Notes: generated by a model from the sequence alone, not told the origin. DNA of 64,000 bases from an uncultured Gammaproteobacteria bacterium (GCA_964507055.1 CAZDOJ010000001.1:1254758-1318757), one strand, 5' to 3'; shown: positions 18,249-24,563, numbered from the stretch's first letter. Numbers and translations: made by a program.

Positions 18249-18560
18249 TTATTGTTTTTGAGGTTTTGATTGCGATTTTGAAGATGGATCAATCTCTTCA
18301 AGAAGGAGTGTCTCGATACCCAAGAAAATATGTACTTCATCTTTTTTTACCTTCATTACCGCCTGTTCAATCTTTAACTCTTTAATCTTCTGCTTATTGT
18401 GATAAAGATCGAGCTGCGTATGAATAATAGATATGAAGTTGGCATGCATAGGGTAGACATCGAACTTTCCAACCTCATTAAAAGAGGTTATACGCTCGGC
18501 TTCGCCTTCATAAATGGTATTTTCAGTATCTTCTACAATGACTTTAAGTAGAGTGGCCAT
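18249..18560 (-). CDS. atpC: F0F1 ATP synthase subunit epsilon
   Basis: 103 aa, lies directly downstream of beta. MATLLKVIVEDTENTIYEGEAERITSFNEVGKFDVYPMHANFISII is the characteristic epsilon beta-sandwich N-terminus. Confidence 0.75.
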   Translation of the reverse strand: MATLLKVIVEDTENTIYEGEAERITSFNEVGKFDVYPMHANFISIIHTQLDLYHNKQKIKELKIEQAVMKVKKDEVHIFLGIETLLLEEIDPSSKSQSKPQKQ

Positions 18561-18607
18561 AGTGTTAGCGTATCATGATCTCTCAGATAATCACAAGTTT
18601 GTACTTC

Positions 18608-20158
18608 TCAACTTGTTTTTTGTCCTGTTGATGGAGGAGGGGTAGGTTGTTGCGTATTTTGTTCTTGTTGCGGCGTTGGAGACTGGGCTGCAGGTGTTCC
18701 AGTTGTTGGTGCAGAAGAATTAACTCCTTCTTGCTGCGATCCTGATAATCTTTCTTTCTCAGCAATTTCCGCCTTTCTTGAGTTAATTTTTTCTTCAACA
18801 TCTTTAAGCGTTCCGATATACAATAAGTCTTCTGGTTTTAGGACATCTGCTTTGCCATTAAGGATTGCACGGACATCAGCGACTGTTTCATTGACTTTCA
18901 CATAGACACCTTTTTTCTCTGTTTGCTGTTCAACGACTGTGAAGTTCTGCGTCATAAAATTTTTAAGCATTTTAGCTCGTTTATAGACAGTTTGATCTTC
19001 AGTAGAGAGTTCTGATTCACCAATAAGTGCTACGATACGTTCAAGTGCTGTCGCACGTTTTAGTAGTGCTTGTGCATCAAGCGCAGTCTGATAGTGTTCT
19101 TCTCCTACGGTATCGACGTTAAGGGCCGAAGAGTTGGATGAAAGGATATCGATAGCAGGGAAGCGTCCTTGTTGGTAAACCGCACGAGAAAGGATAAGAC
19201 CAGAATCAAGGTATGGGAAGATCGCCTGTACACCACTATCCGTCAAATCGTCGGCAGGAACATAAATAGCTTCAAATGTTGTAATAGCATGTTGTTTGGT
19301 AGATACCAAACGCTCATGGAACGAAGCCATTTCGGAAGCTAAAGTTGCCTGGTATCCTCCTTCTGATGGGATAGCATTCATAAGCGTTGAAAGCTCATAT
19401 CCCGACTGAGCAAAGCGGAAAATGTTATCGATAAAAAACAACACATCTTTTCCCATACTGTCCCGATAGTACTCAGCTAAAGTAACGCCAGTAAATGCAG
19501 TACGGAATCTTAGTGCAGGATTTTCTCCCATACTACCGTAAATAAGACTTACACCTTGCATAACCTTACTTTCAATAAGCGTTTGATAGAGTTCTTCTCC
19601 TTCACGAGTACGTTCACCAACACCAGTAAAAATAGAAACATTTTCTTCAGGATTCAAGATAACCAAGTTGTGAATAATTTCAGAAATAATAACGGTTTTA
19701 CCTACACCAGCTCCTCCAAACAATCCTACCTTTCCACCTTTTACAATAGGGGTGAAAAAGTCGACAACTTTGATACCTGTTTCGAGAATGTCCTTCGGAA
19801 TTGTGACATCTTGGAAGCTGATACCTGGGGTAATGATTGGTCGTGTTTCTTTGGCATTTATTGGTCCTTGTCCGTCTTGCGGTTCACCCAATGTATCAAC
19901 AACACGTCCAAGCATCTCTGGCCCAACGGGAATCTTAATCGGTTGGCCCGTACTCACCACAATTGATCCATGATGCAAAATACTTGTATGCGTCAAAGCA
20001 AGGCAATAAAAAGAAGTGGGGGAAGCAGAAGTATATACCTCCATCTTTAACGTCGGATCGTCTTTGTGAACTAAGACATCATAAATACCTGGCTTTTCGT
20101 CAGTAAATTCGACTTCAATAATTTGACCTTTTACACTAATAACTTTTCCTTCTAACAT
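18608..20158 (-). CDS. atpD: F0F1 ATP synthase subunit beta, with a low-complexity Pro/Gln/Thr-rich C-terminal tail of about 60 aa
   Basis: P-loop GGAGVGKTV. The motifs ...GERTREG... and ...DNIFRF..QAG.E.S.L... are classic F1-beta. Confidence 0.9.
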
Positions 20159-20164
20159 AATACT

Positions 20165-22555: not shown

Positions 22556-23080
22556 TTAGTTATGTGCAGCTGTTTGTTGCTTTGAATCTTCCTTGTGAGG
22601 TGCTTCATCTGTTGAAGGTTTCATTAATTGCTTCATTGATTCATCGAAACGTGGCTTGATAGATCCATCAACAAATTTTCCTTTATATTGTAATTTCGCT
22701 CCAGCAATAATATTTTTATCCACGACGATTTCAAAAATCATTTGTTTTTTTATATTCATAACAAACCATTCAGAAAGTGCTTGTAATGTTTTTTCCTTTG
22801 GTTCAACTGCAATAGTCATACTCAGAACGGGGAGAGCGTTCACTGCTGCTTGCAATTTTGTGAGGAATGCTTTCAGTGCTGTCGCTGATTCTGGATTTAT
22901 TTTGTTGTCTCGGAGAAGCGTCATGAACTTATCCTTTTTCTGAATACCAAATTCATCGAGGAGGCTACTTTCTAAATGAAAATTCGTTTCATATATTTTT
23001 GAAGATATTGTTCCAATTCGTGCGTTGAAGTCCATTGCCTGAGCTTTTGTTTTAAAAAAAGGTGTTAAATCAAGTTCCAT
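22556..23080 (-). CDS. atpH: F0F1 ATP synthase subunit delta (OSCP)
   Basis: 174 aa, sits between b and alpha. Helical N-domain and C-terminal ...AGAKLQYKGKFVDGSIK... Confidence 0.65.
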   Translation of the reverse strand: MELDLTPFFKTKAQAMDFNARIGTISSKIYETNFHLESSLLDEFGIQKKDKFMTLLRDNKINPESATALKAFLTKLQAAVNALPVLSMTIAVEPKEKTLQALSEWFVMNIKKQMIFEIVVDKNIIAGAKLQYKGKFVDGSIKPRFDESMKQLMKPSTDEAPHKEDSKQQTAAHN

Positions 23081-23715
23081 TACTCAAATAGTCCTTCCTG
23101 TTTGGCTTTATCGAGCGATTCGATGATTAGCTTTTGGTGATCTTCAGCGGAGATTGATTTATGAAGAACATCCTGTGTCACCTTTAATGTCATACTTTTG
23201 ATGTTTTGTTCTGTTTGCTTCATGCGTGCTTGTTTGTATTCGAGTAATTCTCGTTCGAGAGCTGGGAGCATGTCGTTTTGGAAATGCAGTGCTTGCTTAT
23301 GCAAACCTTCTTGCATTTCTTTTGAAATTGCTTTGAAGTCCTGCAATGATTGATCAGTGAGTTTCTTCAATTCATGCTGATAACTATCTCTGAAATTCTG
23401 TGAGGCATTGGATGTCTCTTTCTCAATATCTGTTTGCATCTGATGGAGTGCTGTATCAACTGATTCTTTTGATGCTTCGCTGACGAATTCGGTTTGGGCA
23501 ATAATCTGATTTGCTTCAGTTGTCGCATCATCAAGGATTTTACGCTCTTTACTTAATGCGTCATCGACGACTTTGTGATATTCCGTATCAGTTTTTTTTT
23601 CTCGCTTTTCTAAATCCTTTTCTTTGGAGTAAAGACGCATCATGTAATAACCGACGAAGAGGAAGAGGACCAGATCGGCCGTAATGGACATCGCTTGGTA
23701 AAATGTGGGCAGCAT
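23080..23715 (-). CDS. atpF: F0F1 ATP synthase subunit b
   Basis: N-terminal TM helix followed by a long charged coiled coil. Its position upstream of delta fits. Confidence 0.65.
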   Translation of the reverse strand: MLPTFYQAMSITADLVLFLFVGYYMMRLYSKEKDLEKREKKTDTEYHKVVDDALSKERKILDDATTEANQIIAQTEFVSEASKESVDTALHQMQTDIEKETSNASQNFRDSYQHELKKLTDQSLQDFKAISKEMQEGLHKQALHFQNDMLPALERELLEYKQARMKQTEQNIKSMTLKVTQDVLHKSISAEDHQKLIIESLDKAKQEGLFE

Positions 23716-23759
23716 AATATATCTATTTTAGCAGAAAACAAGATACTTTGAAGCTTGGG

Positions 23760-24563
23760 TTAGAGGCGGAGGATAAGAAAAGAAACAGTCATTCCAGCGG
23801 CAACGATGATTACCACAATGCCTACATTAAACATAATTCCAAGATGGATAATCCGGCTTGCTGATGGATTACGGCCCAAAGCCTCAACACCTTTTGCAGC
23901 GGTTCGTCCAAAGGTCATAAATGCTAGAACAAATGAGGCAATAACCACAAGTGCCGCAACTATGTATTTAAAAAGAGGAGTAGGACCATCTTTGGTTGGG
24001 AGCAATGCAAACTTGAAAATATCGGTTAGTGAACCTGGAAAAGTAGGTTTGGCATTAAAATAATGGAGGTTAAATTCAACTGCAATCAATCCTGGTTGCG
24101 TTGGGTTGGAACTTCCATAATCTTCAAGTGCAGTCCCGAGTACATATCCATCTTTTACTGCCTTTACTCCGACTCCTGGTATTTCTGATGTAGCGATCAA
24201 GTCGCCCTTTTTAATCGGGCCTTCTTTACTTGCGACCAATACATAGACAGTTCCCACGGAAATGACTGGGACACCGTTTTCTGTAGCACTATTATTTAAG
24301 ATAATTCCGGCATCACGTGAGACAACTCCCATGACCTGTGCATCATAGGGGATATTGGAAAGAACATTTCCGGTGTCAGAGGAAGAGATAATGCTTCCAT
24401 CTTTGACATCTTTAACTTTTACATCAACCATTCGAGCGACTCCAAGCGTTCCAGCACCTTGGACTGCAGATCCTTGAGCGTTAACAGTGGGTGCAATCGT
24501 AAGTAGCAAAGTACCGATTATAGGAAGTATGAGGAATTTGGATTTTAGCGAGGCAGAAAACAT
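23760..24563 (-). CDS. Hypothetical secreted or membrane protein. It has a signal peptide, a soluble domain of about 170 aa and a C-terminal 2-TM hairpin. It sits where atpB/atpE would be expected.
   Basis: MFSASLKSKFLILPIIGTLLLTIAPTVNAQG is a signal peptide. The C-terminus ...FGRTAAKGVEALGRNPSASRIIHLGIMFNVGIVVIIVAAGMTVSFLIL has a loop that resembles the c-subunit 'ARQP' loop, but it has no conserved carboxylate in helix 2. Confidence 0.5.
   Translation of the reverse strand: MFSASLKSKFLILPIIGTLLLTIAPTVNAQGSAVQGAGTLGVARMVDVKVKDVKDGSIISSSDTGNVLSNIPYDAQVMGVVSRDAGIILNNSATENGVPVISVGTVYVLVASKEGPIKKGDLIATSEIPGVGVKAVKDGYVLGTALEDYGSSNPTQPGLIAVEFNLHYFNAKPTFPGSLTDIFKFALLPTKDGPTPLFKYIVAALVVIASFVLAFMTFGRTAAKGVEALGRNPSASRIIHLGIMFNVGIVVIIVAAGMTVSFLILRL

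What the first reader, a model, noticed from the sequence alone, without database searches (positions are those of the whole stretch)
18249..24563. F-type ATP synthase operon (b-delta-alpha-gamma-beta-epsilon) without atpB or atpE. The slot is taken by a secreted-domain/2-TM protein with a c-subunit-like loop and no proton-binding carboxylate.
The canonical order is atpB(a)-atpE(c)-atpF-atpH-atpA-atpG-atpD-atpC. Here the six soluble and stator genes are contiguous on the minus strand, but upstream of atpF there is only a 267-aa protein (23760-24563). It has a signal peptide, a soluble domain of about 170 aa and a C-terminal helical hairpin. The hairpin loop (EALGRNPSASR) recalls the c-subunit polar loop, yet helix 2 has no Asp/Glu. 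The next genes upstream are a CAP-domain protein and a hypothetical. Either a and c are encoded elsewhere, or this lineage uses a divergent membrane sector.
Basis: partly seen in the sequence, partly recalled or inferred. Interest (0 to 1): 0.65.

Follow-up and report, generated by a model that had tools for sequence, protein, structure and literature searches.

The report
F-type ATPase with ion-blind, surface-decorated rotor
This candidate-phyla-radiation (CPR) bacterium, like hundreds of related contigs, carries an ATP-synthase-like operon whose membrane rotor subunit has lost its ion-binding acid and gained an outside-facing domain, with no channel subunit nearby. The machine therefore probably burns ATP to do mechanical work at the cell surface rather than pump or use protons.

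Summary
On the minus strand, 24563-18249 encodes seven tightly packed genes: a 267-aa protein ("cX"), then b, delta, alpha, gamma, beta and epsilon. No atpB or canonical atpE occurs in the 64 kb window.

cX is a derived c subunit. It has a signal peptide, a beta ectodomain resembling phage fibre/cement domains, and a C-terminal hairpin that matches F-type c subunits in sequence profile and in predicted fold. The loop GRNP is invariant. The canonical carboxylate position is V/I/L/F/M in all 265 family members checked.

The cassette is not a local oddity. cX->alpha->gamma->beta is kept in 32 of 35 related loci with enough sequence. No subunit a was found in about 0.98 Mb of flanks. The cX family has 389 representatives at E<=1e-30 in a library clustered at 50% identity.

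A protein led by a MerR-type helix-turn-helix (HTH), usually a giant membrane-anchored surface protein, lies within three genes in 20 of 20 loci with both flanks.

Best reading: a non-ion-translocating F-type ATPase that passes ATP-driven motion to the cell surface. It is analogous to, but distinct from, the Mycoplasma "F1-like X0" ATPases. I could not test whether atpB is absent from the whole genome. I found no published description.

The parts
23760..24563 (-). cX: 267-aa derived c subunit (signal peptide + beta ectodomain + c-like hairpin without carboxylate)
   Evidence: ORF. Family of 595 close hits, many named COG0636 by JGI. 389 representatives at E<=1e-30. AF2 model with pLDDT 88.6. 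Foldseek hits to c subunits and to phage capsid/fibre domains.
24477..24563 (-). cX signal peptide (residues 1-29, cleavage after VNA)
   Evidence: Hydrophobic N-terminus and sequence. In long variants it is replaced by a cytoplasmic HTH plus a TM anchor.
24036..24455 (-). cX extracellular all-beta domain (about residues 37-176)
   Evidence: AF2 strands at pLDDT above 93. BFVD Foldseek E 2.5e-11 to phage preneck-appendage barrel and tail-fibre proteins. PDB hits to capsid decoration proteins. PF23982 matched in 19 of 49 members. The same domain occurs in neighbouring giant proteins of L076, L082, L084 and L089.
23763..23984 (-). cX C-terminal helical hairpin (residues 194-267). Loop G230-R231-N232-P233. 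N246 is the conserved polar residue. V251 sits at the canonical carboxylate position.
23080..23715 (-). Elongated b subunit (211 aa; one N-terminal TM helix, then a long helix)
   Evidence: Family profile hits solved F-type b subunits: 9o19_X at 7.4e-7, 6n2d_b2 at 6.5e-6, 9itj_U at 5.6e-5. Single-sequence hits were weak.
22556..23080 (-). delta/OSCP subunit (174 aa)
   Evidence: PF00213 at 33.9 bits, above the 22.3 cut-off.
21075..22553 (-). alpha subunit (492 aa). Walker A GDRKTGKT at 157; Arg finger RPAVN at 345.
20165..21058 (-). gamma subunit (297 aa)
   Evidence: PF00231 at 91.8 bits.
18608..20158 (-). beta subunit (516 aa). GGAGVGKT at 148, GERTREG at 181, Walker [10 protein letters not shown] at 240, and a Pro/Gln-rich C-terminal tail.
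   Evidence: TIGR01039 at 485.4 bits, above the 462.85 cut-off. Motifs.
18249..18560 (-). Short epsilon subunit (103 aa): beta-sandwich with a truncated C-terminal helical part
   Evidence: PF02823 at 32.2 bits. TIGR01216 aligned over 6-96 of 130 positions.
1..16848 (-). Conserved neighbour: giant surface protein. At least 5616 aa; runs off the window start. It has an N-terminal MerR-like HTH, a TM helix near residue 155, then a Thr/Gly/Ala/Asn-rich repetitive ectodomain.
   Evidence: An HTH-led large protein lies within 3 genes of the cassette in 20 of 20 loci that have both flanks.

Best explanation
The cassette encodes an F-type rotary ATPase that has given up ion translocation.

Shown:
- A catalytically intact F1: alpha3beta3-type P-loops, catalytic Glu and Arg finger, plus gamma and epsilon.
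- A retained peripheral stalk (b and delta).
- A c-subunit homologue, cX, that keeps the invariant cytoplasmic R-N-P loop.
- cX has a hydrophobic residue at the carboxylate site in all relatives. It carries a roughly 140-residue extracellular beta domain at its outward-facing N-terminus.
- No subunit a in the operon of any of the relatives examined (more than 80 loci).

Inferred:
- cX oligomerises into a ring under gamma/epsilon.
- ATP hydrolysis turns or twists that ring, and with it a collar of ectodomains on the outer face of the membrane.
- The output is mechanical or conformational work at the cell surface, not a proton or sodium gradient.
- The likely client is the co-located giant surface protein. 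It is MerR-HTH-led and membrane-anchored, and in some relatives it carries the same ectodomain.
- The system works like the Mycoplasma F1-like X0 ATPases, which power gliding legs or the MIB-MIP antibody-cleaving system. It arose separately, from a genuine F1Fo.
For: - F1 identity and catalytic motifs.
- b subunit homology.
- cX hairpin is c-like. Profile against the PDB aligns in register with A. woodii c2, and the carboxylate column falls on V/I. hhalign gives P 2e-5 over 66 columns. Foldseek gives TMt 0.8-0.89 and rmsd 1.2-1.9 A to many solved c subunits. PF00137 is hit in 4 of 49 members and NF005521 weakly. JGI labels many relatives COG0636.
- No carboxylate. Position P+18 is V/I/L/F/M in 265 of 265. 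The only Asp/Glu found in the scanned part of helix 2 (P+6 to P+30) are Glu at the cytoplasmic-boundary position P+7 in 12 members and one Asp at P+25 in P0245. R-N-P is invariant.
- Topology. A signal peptide, or an N-in TM anchor in the long variants, puts the domain outside and the loop inside, as in c.
- The face of helix 2 next to the old carboxylate site is variable, as expected for lipid exposure rather than a stator contact.
- Cassette conservation: 8 of 8 genome loci; 32 of 35 loci with at least 8.5 kb downstream; also in the long-variant loci L095, L096 and L098.
- No subunit a or canonical c in the window or in 0.98 Mb of related loci.
- HTH/giant-protein neighbour in 20 of 20 loci. 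The ectodomain is shared with the neighbouring giant proteins in four loci.
- Analogy. [quoted passage not shown]
Against: - Genome-wide absence of atpB and atpE was not tested. Only 64 kb of 1.32 Mb was readable.
- Four relatives split the operon after gamma, so atp genes can be dispersed in this group.
- Keeping b and delta without subunit a leaves no obvious membrane stator to react the torque.
- Helix 1 lacks the GxGxGxG packing motif of c rings, so ring formation is not assured.
- Sequence similarity of the hairpin to c is modest: E 0.01-0.5 for single profiles and hhalign probability 77%.
- The link to the giant protein is only gene neighbourhood. The shared element could simply be a MerR-type transcription regulator of the operon, since a standalone 73-aa MerR gene sits divergently upstream in L095, L096, L098 and L099.
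- No expression or biochemical data exist.
Confidence: 0.55

Rival explanations
1. Ordinary ion-translocating F1Fo with a split gene set. Subunit a, and perhaps a normal c, are encoded elsewhere in the genome. cX is an accessory, assembly or regulatory partner that merely resembles c.
For: b and delta are retained, and in known enzymes they work with subunit a. Operons can be split in this group: beta and epsilon are missing after gamma in L019, L021, L023 and L038. Only 5% of the genome was inspected. Some Patescibacteria do have a, b and c annotated (PMC8672522).
Against: cX occupies the atpE position in every locus and keeps the invariant gamma/epsilon-facing R-N-P loop. No a or c was found in 0.98 Mb of flanks. 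The operon would then carry a c-like gene that cannot bind ions, alongside a separate true c. That arrangement has no precedent known to me.
Confidence: 0.17
2. Ion translocation by a non-canonical site. The near-invariant Asn/His at P+13 of helix 2 (N246), perhaps with polar or acidic residues in the b TM helix, forms a new coupling site. That would make the enzyme a pump or synthase without subunit a.
For: N/H at P+13 occurs in 264 of 265 members. Many b-like TM helices carry a D/N/E near their outer end.
Against: As far as I know, all characterised H+ and Na+ sites in c/K rings need a carboxylate. N246 lies on the conserved heptad-like packing stripe (P+2, 6, 9/10, 13, 16/17, 20, 24, 28, 31), which suggests a helix-helix hydrogen bond. 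The polar residue in b is absent from many relatives. No half-channel protein is present.
Confidence: 0.08
3. A membrane-tethered F1-ATPase with no rotary output. cX and b only anchor F1 to the membrane. There it acts as a regulated ATP hydrolase, or as an unfoldase-like energiser for export or assembly of giant surface proteins, in the manner of the FliH/I/J complex of type III secretion.
For: The ectodomain resembles domains of phage tail spikes and fibres and preneck-appendage barrels. There is also a weak Peptidase_G2/S74 chaperone-type hit in the giant protein of L082. The giant neighbours must move thousands of residues across the membrane. epsilon lacks most of its inhibitory C-terminal part.
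Against: The full rotor and stator set (gamma, epsilon, delta, b) is conserved over wide divergence, which is hard to explain without rotation. No export gate is encoded in the cassette.
Confidence: 0.15

Closest known systems
Canonical bacterial F1Fo ATP synthase (atpIBEFHAGDC)
   Same: alpha, beta, gamma, delta, epsilon and b are true homologues in the canonical order. beta passes the atpD equivalog cut-off. The catalytic motifs are intact. The c-like hairpin keeps the R-(Q/N)-P loop.
   Different: No subunit a in or near the operon. The c homologue has no carboxylate and no GxGxGxG motif, and it carries a signal peptide plus a roughly 140-residue ectodomain. b is about 50 residues longer and epsilon is shorter. 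gamma, delta and epsilon score far below the equivalog cut-offs.
Mycoplasma Type 2 (M. mobile gliding G1) and Type 3 (MIB-MIP-associated) 'F1-like X0' ATPases (Beven 2012, PMC3369863; Berlureau 2026, PMC12994834)
   Same: Seven-gene cluster built around alpha/beta/gamma/epsilon homologues. No Fo a or c. One subunit has an N-terminal signal peptide, a surface domain and two C-terminal TM helices. Genetically or functionally tied to large surface proteins. ATP hydrolysis is thought to be transmitted across the membrane.
   Different: The CPR cassette keeps b and delta and has no 12-TM protein or small cytoplasmic subunit. Its ectodomain protein is small (28 kDa against 85-127 kDa) and recognisably c-derived. 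Its alpha and beta score best against genuine atpA/atpD and fail the MSC_0618/0619 and MMOB1660/1670 cut-offs. The Mycoplasma systems coexist with a normal F1Fo; whether that holds here is unknown.
'Non-catalytic' c/K subunits lacking Glu/Asp, noted in the ProAD survey of rotary ATPases (PMC11738941)
   Same: The survey flagged 20 F/N-type loci whose c subunit has no ion-binding carboxylate. It attributed missing core subunits in Patescibacteria to incomplete genomes.
   Different: The paper gives no architecture, ectodomain, distribution or neighbourhood. It is unknown whether its 20 cases include this family.
N-ATPase (alternate F1Fo, atpDCQRBEFAG)
   Same: A second, divergent lineage of F-type ATPase operons.
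   Different: N-ATPases have a, a carboxylate-bearing c, AtpQ/R and no delta. Here beta scores 415.7 against the 752 cut-off of TIGR03305, and the gene order is canonical.
Phage capsid cement/decoration proteins and tail-fibre/preneck-appendage barrel domains (PF23982 XM1 gp53, PF09956; PDB 8pkh, 5wk1_K, 7kmx_a)
   Same: The cX ectodomain shares their fold and has weak sequence similarity to them.
   Different: Here the domain is fused to a c-type membrane hairpin and encoded in a cellular ATPase operon.

Membership tests
F1Fo ATP synthase | alpha/beta catalytic pair with Walker A, catalytic Glu and alpha Arg finger | tested here: met
   PF00006 in both subunits. beta scores 485.4 on TIGR01039, above the 462.85 cut-off. 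Motifs found: [28 protein letters not shown].
F1Fo ATP synthase | central stalk gamma and epsilon | tested here: met
   PF00231 at 91.8 bits and PF02823 at 32.2 bits, both above the Pfam cut-offs. Both fall below the NCBIfam equivalog cut-offs.
F1Fo ATP synthase | peripheral stalk b and delta/OSCP | tested here: met
   PF00213 at 33.9 bits. The b-family profile hits solved b subunits at E 7e-7 to 6e-5.
F1Fo ATP synthase | c subunit with a membrane-embedded Asp/Glu in helix 2 | tested here: not met
   The aligned position (P+18, V251) is V/I/L/F/M in 265 of 265 members.
F1Fo ATP synthase | c subunit helix-1 glycine motif (GxGxGxG) | tested here: not met
   Helix 1 conserves A, S, G-F, F-G at irregular spacing and has no Gly repeat.
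F1Fo ATP synthase | subunit a (PF00119) with the stator arginine | tested here: inconclusive
   Absent from the 64 kb window and from 0.98 Mb of related loci. The rest of the 1.32 Mb genome could not be read.
Mycoplasma F1-like X0 ATPase (Type 2/3) | alpha- and beta-like subunits matching the MSC_0618/0619 or MMOB1660/1670 models | tested here: not met
   Scores 393.5 against 570, 264.5 against 520, 386.6 against 850 and 366 against 600. The genuine atpD and atpA models score higher.
Mycoplasma F1-like X0 ATPase (Type 2/3) | 12-TM protein and small cytoplasmic protein in the cluster; no b or delta | tested here: not met
   The cassette is cX-b-delta-alpha-gamma-beta-epsilon in the window and in relatives.
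Mycoplasma F1-like X0 ATPase (Type 2/3) | subunit with N-terminal signal peptide, surface domain and two C-terminal TM helices | tested here: met
   The cX architecture matches. This is architecture only.
N-ATPase | alternate F1 subunits (TIGR03305/03324/03323) with atpQ/R, a and c | tested here: not met
   Scores 415.7 against 752, 342 against 750.5 and 13 against 282. No atpQ/R, a or c is present.
Phage cement / XM1 gp53-like beta domain (PF23982) | match to the Pfam model at its gathering score, and a shared fold | tested here: inconclusive
   The window protein scores 15.7 bits against a cut-off of 27. 19 of 49 relatives match, best E 1.6e-4. Fold matches have E 6e-4 in the PDB and 2.5e-11 in BFVD.

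The most novel reading that the evidence does not exclude
CPR bacteria have turned a complete F-type rotary engine (F1 plus both stalks) into an ATP-powered surface machine. A c-derived ring that cannot bind ions carries a collar of phage-fibre-like domains outside the membrane. That collar transmits torque or twist to giant surface fibres, for their assembly, tensioning, retraction, host attachment or movement. This would be a further re-use of F1 alongside the Mycoplasma Type 2 (gliding) and Type 3 (MIB-MIP) ATPases, and the first to keep the stator. It would also mean that many 'ATP synthase present' calls in CPR genomes say nothing about proton-motive force.
Probability: 0.3. Interest if true: 0.9.

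Novelty: new variant of a known kind. Interest (0 to 1): 0.78.

Why it matters
CPR/Patescibacteria lack respiratory chains. Whether and how they keep a membrane potential is an open question, and metabolic reconstructions routinely score "F-type ATPase present" from alpha/beta hits.

If a large share of those hits are this cassette, such organisms have neither an ATP synthase nor a proton-pumping ATPase. Their energy budgets and host dependence would then need re-reading.

Mechanistically, a c ring without an ion site, without subunit a, but with an intact stator and an external domain would be a natural experiment in what a rotary ATPase can do besides move ions. It would parallel the Mycoplasma gliding and MIB-MIP motors. 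The 20-of-20 neighbourhood with giant surface proteins gives a concrete client to test.

Tried and rejected
- The first AF2 run, with 25 close homologues, gave a poor ectodomain model (pLDDT 30-60). A 49-sequence diverse alignment fixed this.
A3 worked.
- One search used wrong minus-strand coordinates: it dropped the Met codon instead of the stop. One search repeated it correctly, and no source gives these proteins a name. The first rows of A1 and A2 likewise lack Met1, so their numbering is offset by -1.
- I considered the upstream CAP-domain, 433-aa and 479-aa proteins as parts of the system. I rejected them because they are conserved only in the closest relatives.
- I considered the 580-aa multi-TM gene between cX and b in L050 and L065 as a replacement for subunit a. 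It is a PMT_2 + TPR glycosyltransferase.
- Other multi-TM neighbours are PilD, EamA, acyltransferase or ABC permease.
- I considered a conserved acidic residue in the b TM helix as a stator charge. It is not universal.
- My HTH HMM, built from the giant proteins, did not hit the HTH of the long cX variants. Pfam calls that one HTH_17, weakly.
- PHROGs gave only weak hits.
- The promoter and terminator scan was no better than shuffled sequence.
- Nine literature searches found no description of this cassette.

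
Full report
**What is there.** On the minus strand, from 24563 down to 18249, lie seven ORFs separated by -1 to 47 bp. Six are F-type ATPase subunits.
- beta: TIGR01039 at 485 bits, above its cut-off.
- alpha: PF00006 and PF00306.
- gamma: PF00231.
- delta: PF00213.
- epsilon: PF02823, short at 103 aa.
- A 211-aa protein with one N-terminal TM helix. 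Alone it gives only weak b/E/H-type hits. A profile of 25 orthologues finds solved F-type b subunits at E 7e-7 to 6e-5.

The catalytic motifs are intact: [15 protein letters not shown] and Walker B in beta, and GDRKTGKT and the RPAVN arginine finger in alpha. The first-stage observation is therefore correct in every particular, including the CAP-domain protein and the unmatched 433-aa protein upstream.

**The window otherwise.** The window comes from a Patescibacteria (CPR) genome. The exact proteins lie on a 1.32 Mb contig. The nearest genome records are Patescibacteria or Levyibacteriota MAGs, several carrying plainly generic titles. Nothing in the 64 kb resembles subunit a or a normal c. 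The only multi-TM proteins are an acyltransferase_3 and BacA/UppP. The odd broken plus-strand ORFs in 1-16000 are shadows of one giant minus-strand gene. It starts at 16848 and runs off the window, giving at least 5616 aa.

**The 267-aa protein (cX).** It has a signal peptide (1-29), an all-beta domain (about 37-176), a short amphipathic helix, and a helical hairpin (194-267). With a diverse 49-sequence alignment, AlphaFold2 gives mean pLDDT 88.6.

The evidence that the hairpin is c-like:
- A family profile aligns it in register with solved c subunits.
- Foldseek superposes it on many c subunits at TM 0.8-0.89 and rmsd 1.2-1.9 A.
- PF00137 is hit by 4 of 49 members.
- JGI labels many relatives COG0636.

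The loop G-R-N-P is invariant in 145 representatives, but the hallmarks of ion coupling are gone. The position aligned with the carboxylate (P+18, V251) is V/I/L/F/M in 265 of 265 sequences. No Asp/Glu lies at or near the canonical carboxylate site in either helix. The only ones in the scanned part of helix 2 (P+6 to P+30) are Glu at P+7 in 12 members and one Asp at P+25 in P0245. The GxGxGxG motif of helix 1 is absent.

A near-invariant Asn/His (N246, P+13) lies on a heptad-like stripe of conserved residues, which looks like a packing face. The stripe next to the old carboxylate site is variable, as expected for lipid exposure rather than contact with a stator subunit.

The topology fits a c subunit with an added outside domain. 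Some relatives (P0208, P0254, P0259, P0268) replace the signal peptide with a cytoplasmic HTH plus a TM anchor, which gives the same orientation.

**The ectodomain.** By sequence it weakly matches XM1 gp53 and phage cement families: PF23982 in 19 of 49 members and PF09956 in 4. By fold it matches capsid decoration proteins in the PDB (E 6e-4). It matches phage preneck-appendage barrel and tail-fibre proteins in BFVD much more strongly (E 2.5e-11, 20-28% identity).

The same domain occurs in large CPR surface proteins. It appears three times in a 4272-aa protein. It also appears in the giant proteins encoded next to the cassette in L076, L082, L084 and L089, at E 1e-14 to 1e-26.

**How general it is.**
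- cX has 595 close homologues.
- In a library clustered at 50% identity it has 389 representatives at E<=1e-30 and 2958 at E<=1e-10. Nearly all of the best 150 listed have the full architecture.
- In 8 genome loci and 80 metagenome loci the order cX-b-delta-alpha-gamma-beta-epsilon recurs, down to about 45% alpha identity.
- Of 35 loci with at least 8.5 kb downstream, 32 have cX->alpha->gamma->beta in order. The other three (L021, L023, L038) stop after gamma, so beta and epsilon must be elsewhere; the shorter locus L019 looks the same.
- Insertions between cX and b are toxin-antitoxin genes, small four-helix proteins, or a PMT_2 + TPR glycosyltransferase. None is a subunit a.
- In about 0.98 Mb of these loci, a canonical-c HMM finds only cX, and an E. 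coli AtpB search finds nothing. This test for subunit a has low sensitivity. All other multi-TM neighbours have other identities.
- The long HTH-cX variants head the same cassette.

**A conserved neighbour.** In 20 of 20 loci with at least 2.5 kb on both sides, a MerR/HTH-led protein lies within three genes. It is usually a very large protein with one TM helix after the HTH. In the window's clade it follows epsilon on the same strand. In the other clades it lies upstream and divergent. Where cX itself carries the HTH, a standalone 73-aa MerR gene sits divergently upstream. The window has only one such HTH in 64 kb, in the giant protein.

Two readings are open. The giant protein may be the machine's client, or the HTH may simply be the operon's regulator, sometimes membrane-tethered. 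They do not exclude each other.

**Mechanism.**
- Shown: an intact F1, both stalks, a c-derived membrane subunit that cannot bind ions in the known way, an outside domain, and no subunit a in any operon.
- Inferred: cX forms a ring under gamma/epsilon, because the R-N-P loop is the part kept invariant. ATP hydrolysis then moves that ring and its external collar. The output is mechanical or conformational work at the surface.
- Weak point: the stator. Without subunit a, it is unclear what the b helices hold on to.
- Main caveat: I could not search the remaining 95% of the genome, and operon splitting does occur in this group.

I put the main reading at 0.55. A dispersed canonical a/c gets 0.17, a non-rotary anchoring or energiser role 0.15, and a new Asn-based ion site 0.08.

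**Comparison with known systems.** The subunits are closest to genuine F1Fo. As a whole, however, the complex fails two defining Fo features: the c carboxylate and, locally, subunit a.

Functionally the nearest analogues are the Mycoplasma Type 2/3 F1-like X0 ATPases. [quoted passage not shown] They also have links to large surface proteins (PMC3369863; PMC12994834). The CPR cassette fails their membership tests. Its scores on their alpha/beta models fall below the cut-offs, it has no 12-TM protein, and b and delta are present.

The ProAD survey mentions 20 F/N-type loci with carboxylate-less c subunits and attributes missing subunits in Patescibacteria to incomplete genomes (PMC11738941). Mahendrarajah et al. 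speak of "minimal complexes" in CPR (PMC10656485). I found no description of the fusion, its distribution or its neighbourhood.

**Verdict.** This is a real, widespread and apparently undescribed variant of the F-type ATPase. Its interest is high both for CPR bioenergetics and for rotary-motor biology. The one decisive computation still missing is a whole-genome search for atpB and atpE.

Noticed in passing
window 1-16848 (minus strand): One giant gene starts at 16848 and runs off the window, giving at least 5616 aa. It has an N-terminal MerR-like HTH (PF13411, E 8e-4), a TM helix near residue 155, then a repetitive Thr/Gly/Ala/Asn/Ser-rich ectodomain with no Pfam match. The many GTG/TTG plus-strand ORFs in 1-16000 are its shadows.
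   Followed up: partly
window 16849-18248: A 1.4 kb AT-rich (30% GC) gap lies between epsilon and the giant gene, with no ORF above 46 aa and no Rfam hit. The 730 nt next to the giant gene are 76% identical to L006, and about 94 nt are conserved in L007. It may be a long leader or regulatory region.
   Followed up: partly
L050 10855-12597; L065 7725-9458; also L064, L087, L090 (between cX and b) and L083 (downstream of epsilon): In one subclade a 577-580 aa multi-TM PMT_2 + TPR glycosyltransferase is inserted inside the cassette. This hints that cX or the surface protein is O-glycosylated.
   Followed up: partly
L031 8911-9867 and 17 other loci, immediately upstream of cX: A roughly 318-aa protein with a weak Fic/DOC match and a C-terminal DeoR-type winged HTH sits between the divergent giant gene and cX in 18 loci.
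   Followed up: partly
L028 8665-9609; L071 9135-9887; L085 6707-7504: A prepilin peptidase (PilD; A24_N_bact + Peptidase_A24) lies just downstream of the cassette in three loci.
   Followed up: no
L019, L021, L023, L038: The cassette stops after gamma, with no beta or epsilon in the several kb that follow, so the operon is split in some lineages. L038 also has a second, divergent cX paralogue on the opposite strand (4710-5495) next to a 1528-aa protein.
   Followed up: partly
L082 1009-8652 (minus): This adjacent 2547-aa protein has two strong MerR HTH copies at its N-terminus (E 4e-27), a GDSL lipase domain (724-892) and weak Peptidase_S74 / Peptidase_G2 chaperone-type hits (1963-2162). These overlap its copy of the cX ectodomain (2111-2242).
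   Followed up: partly
L095 321-1878: A reverse transcriptase (RVT_1) lies next to a bAvd-like gene about 8 kb upstream of a long-variant cassette. This looks like a diversity-generating retroelement.
   Followed up: no
window 38327-38400, 39860-40070 and 63050-64000: tRNA-Ile with anticodon TAT; two divergently arranged tRNA-Met genes; a 23S rRNA start preceded by tRNA-Ala, but with a protein gene (61930-62856) rather than a 16S rRNA gene upstream.
   Followed up: no
window 25434-26735 and 26699-28138: Two divergently oriented proteins of 433 and 479 aa have no Pfam match. The 479-aa one weakly resembles a diglucosyl-diacylglycerol synthase (E 1e-4). They are conserved only in the closest relatives (L006, L007).
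   Followed up: partly
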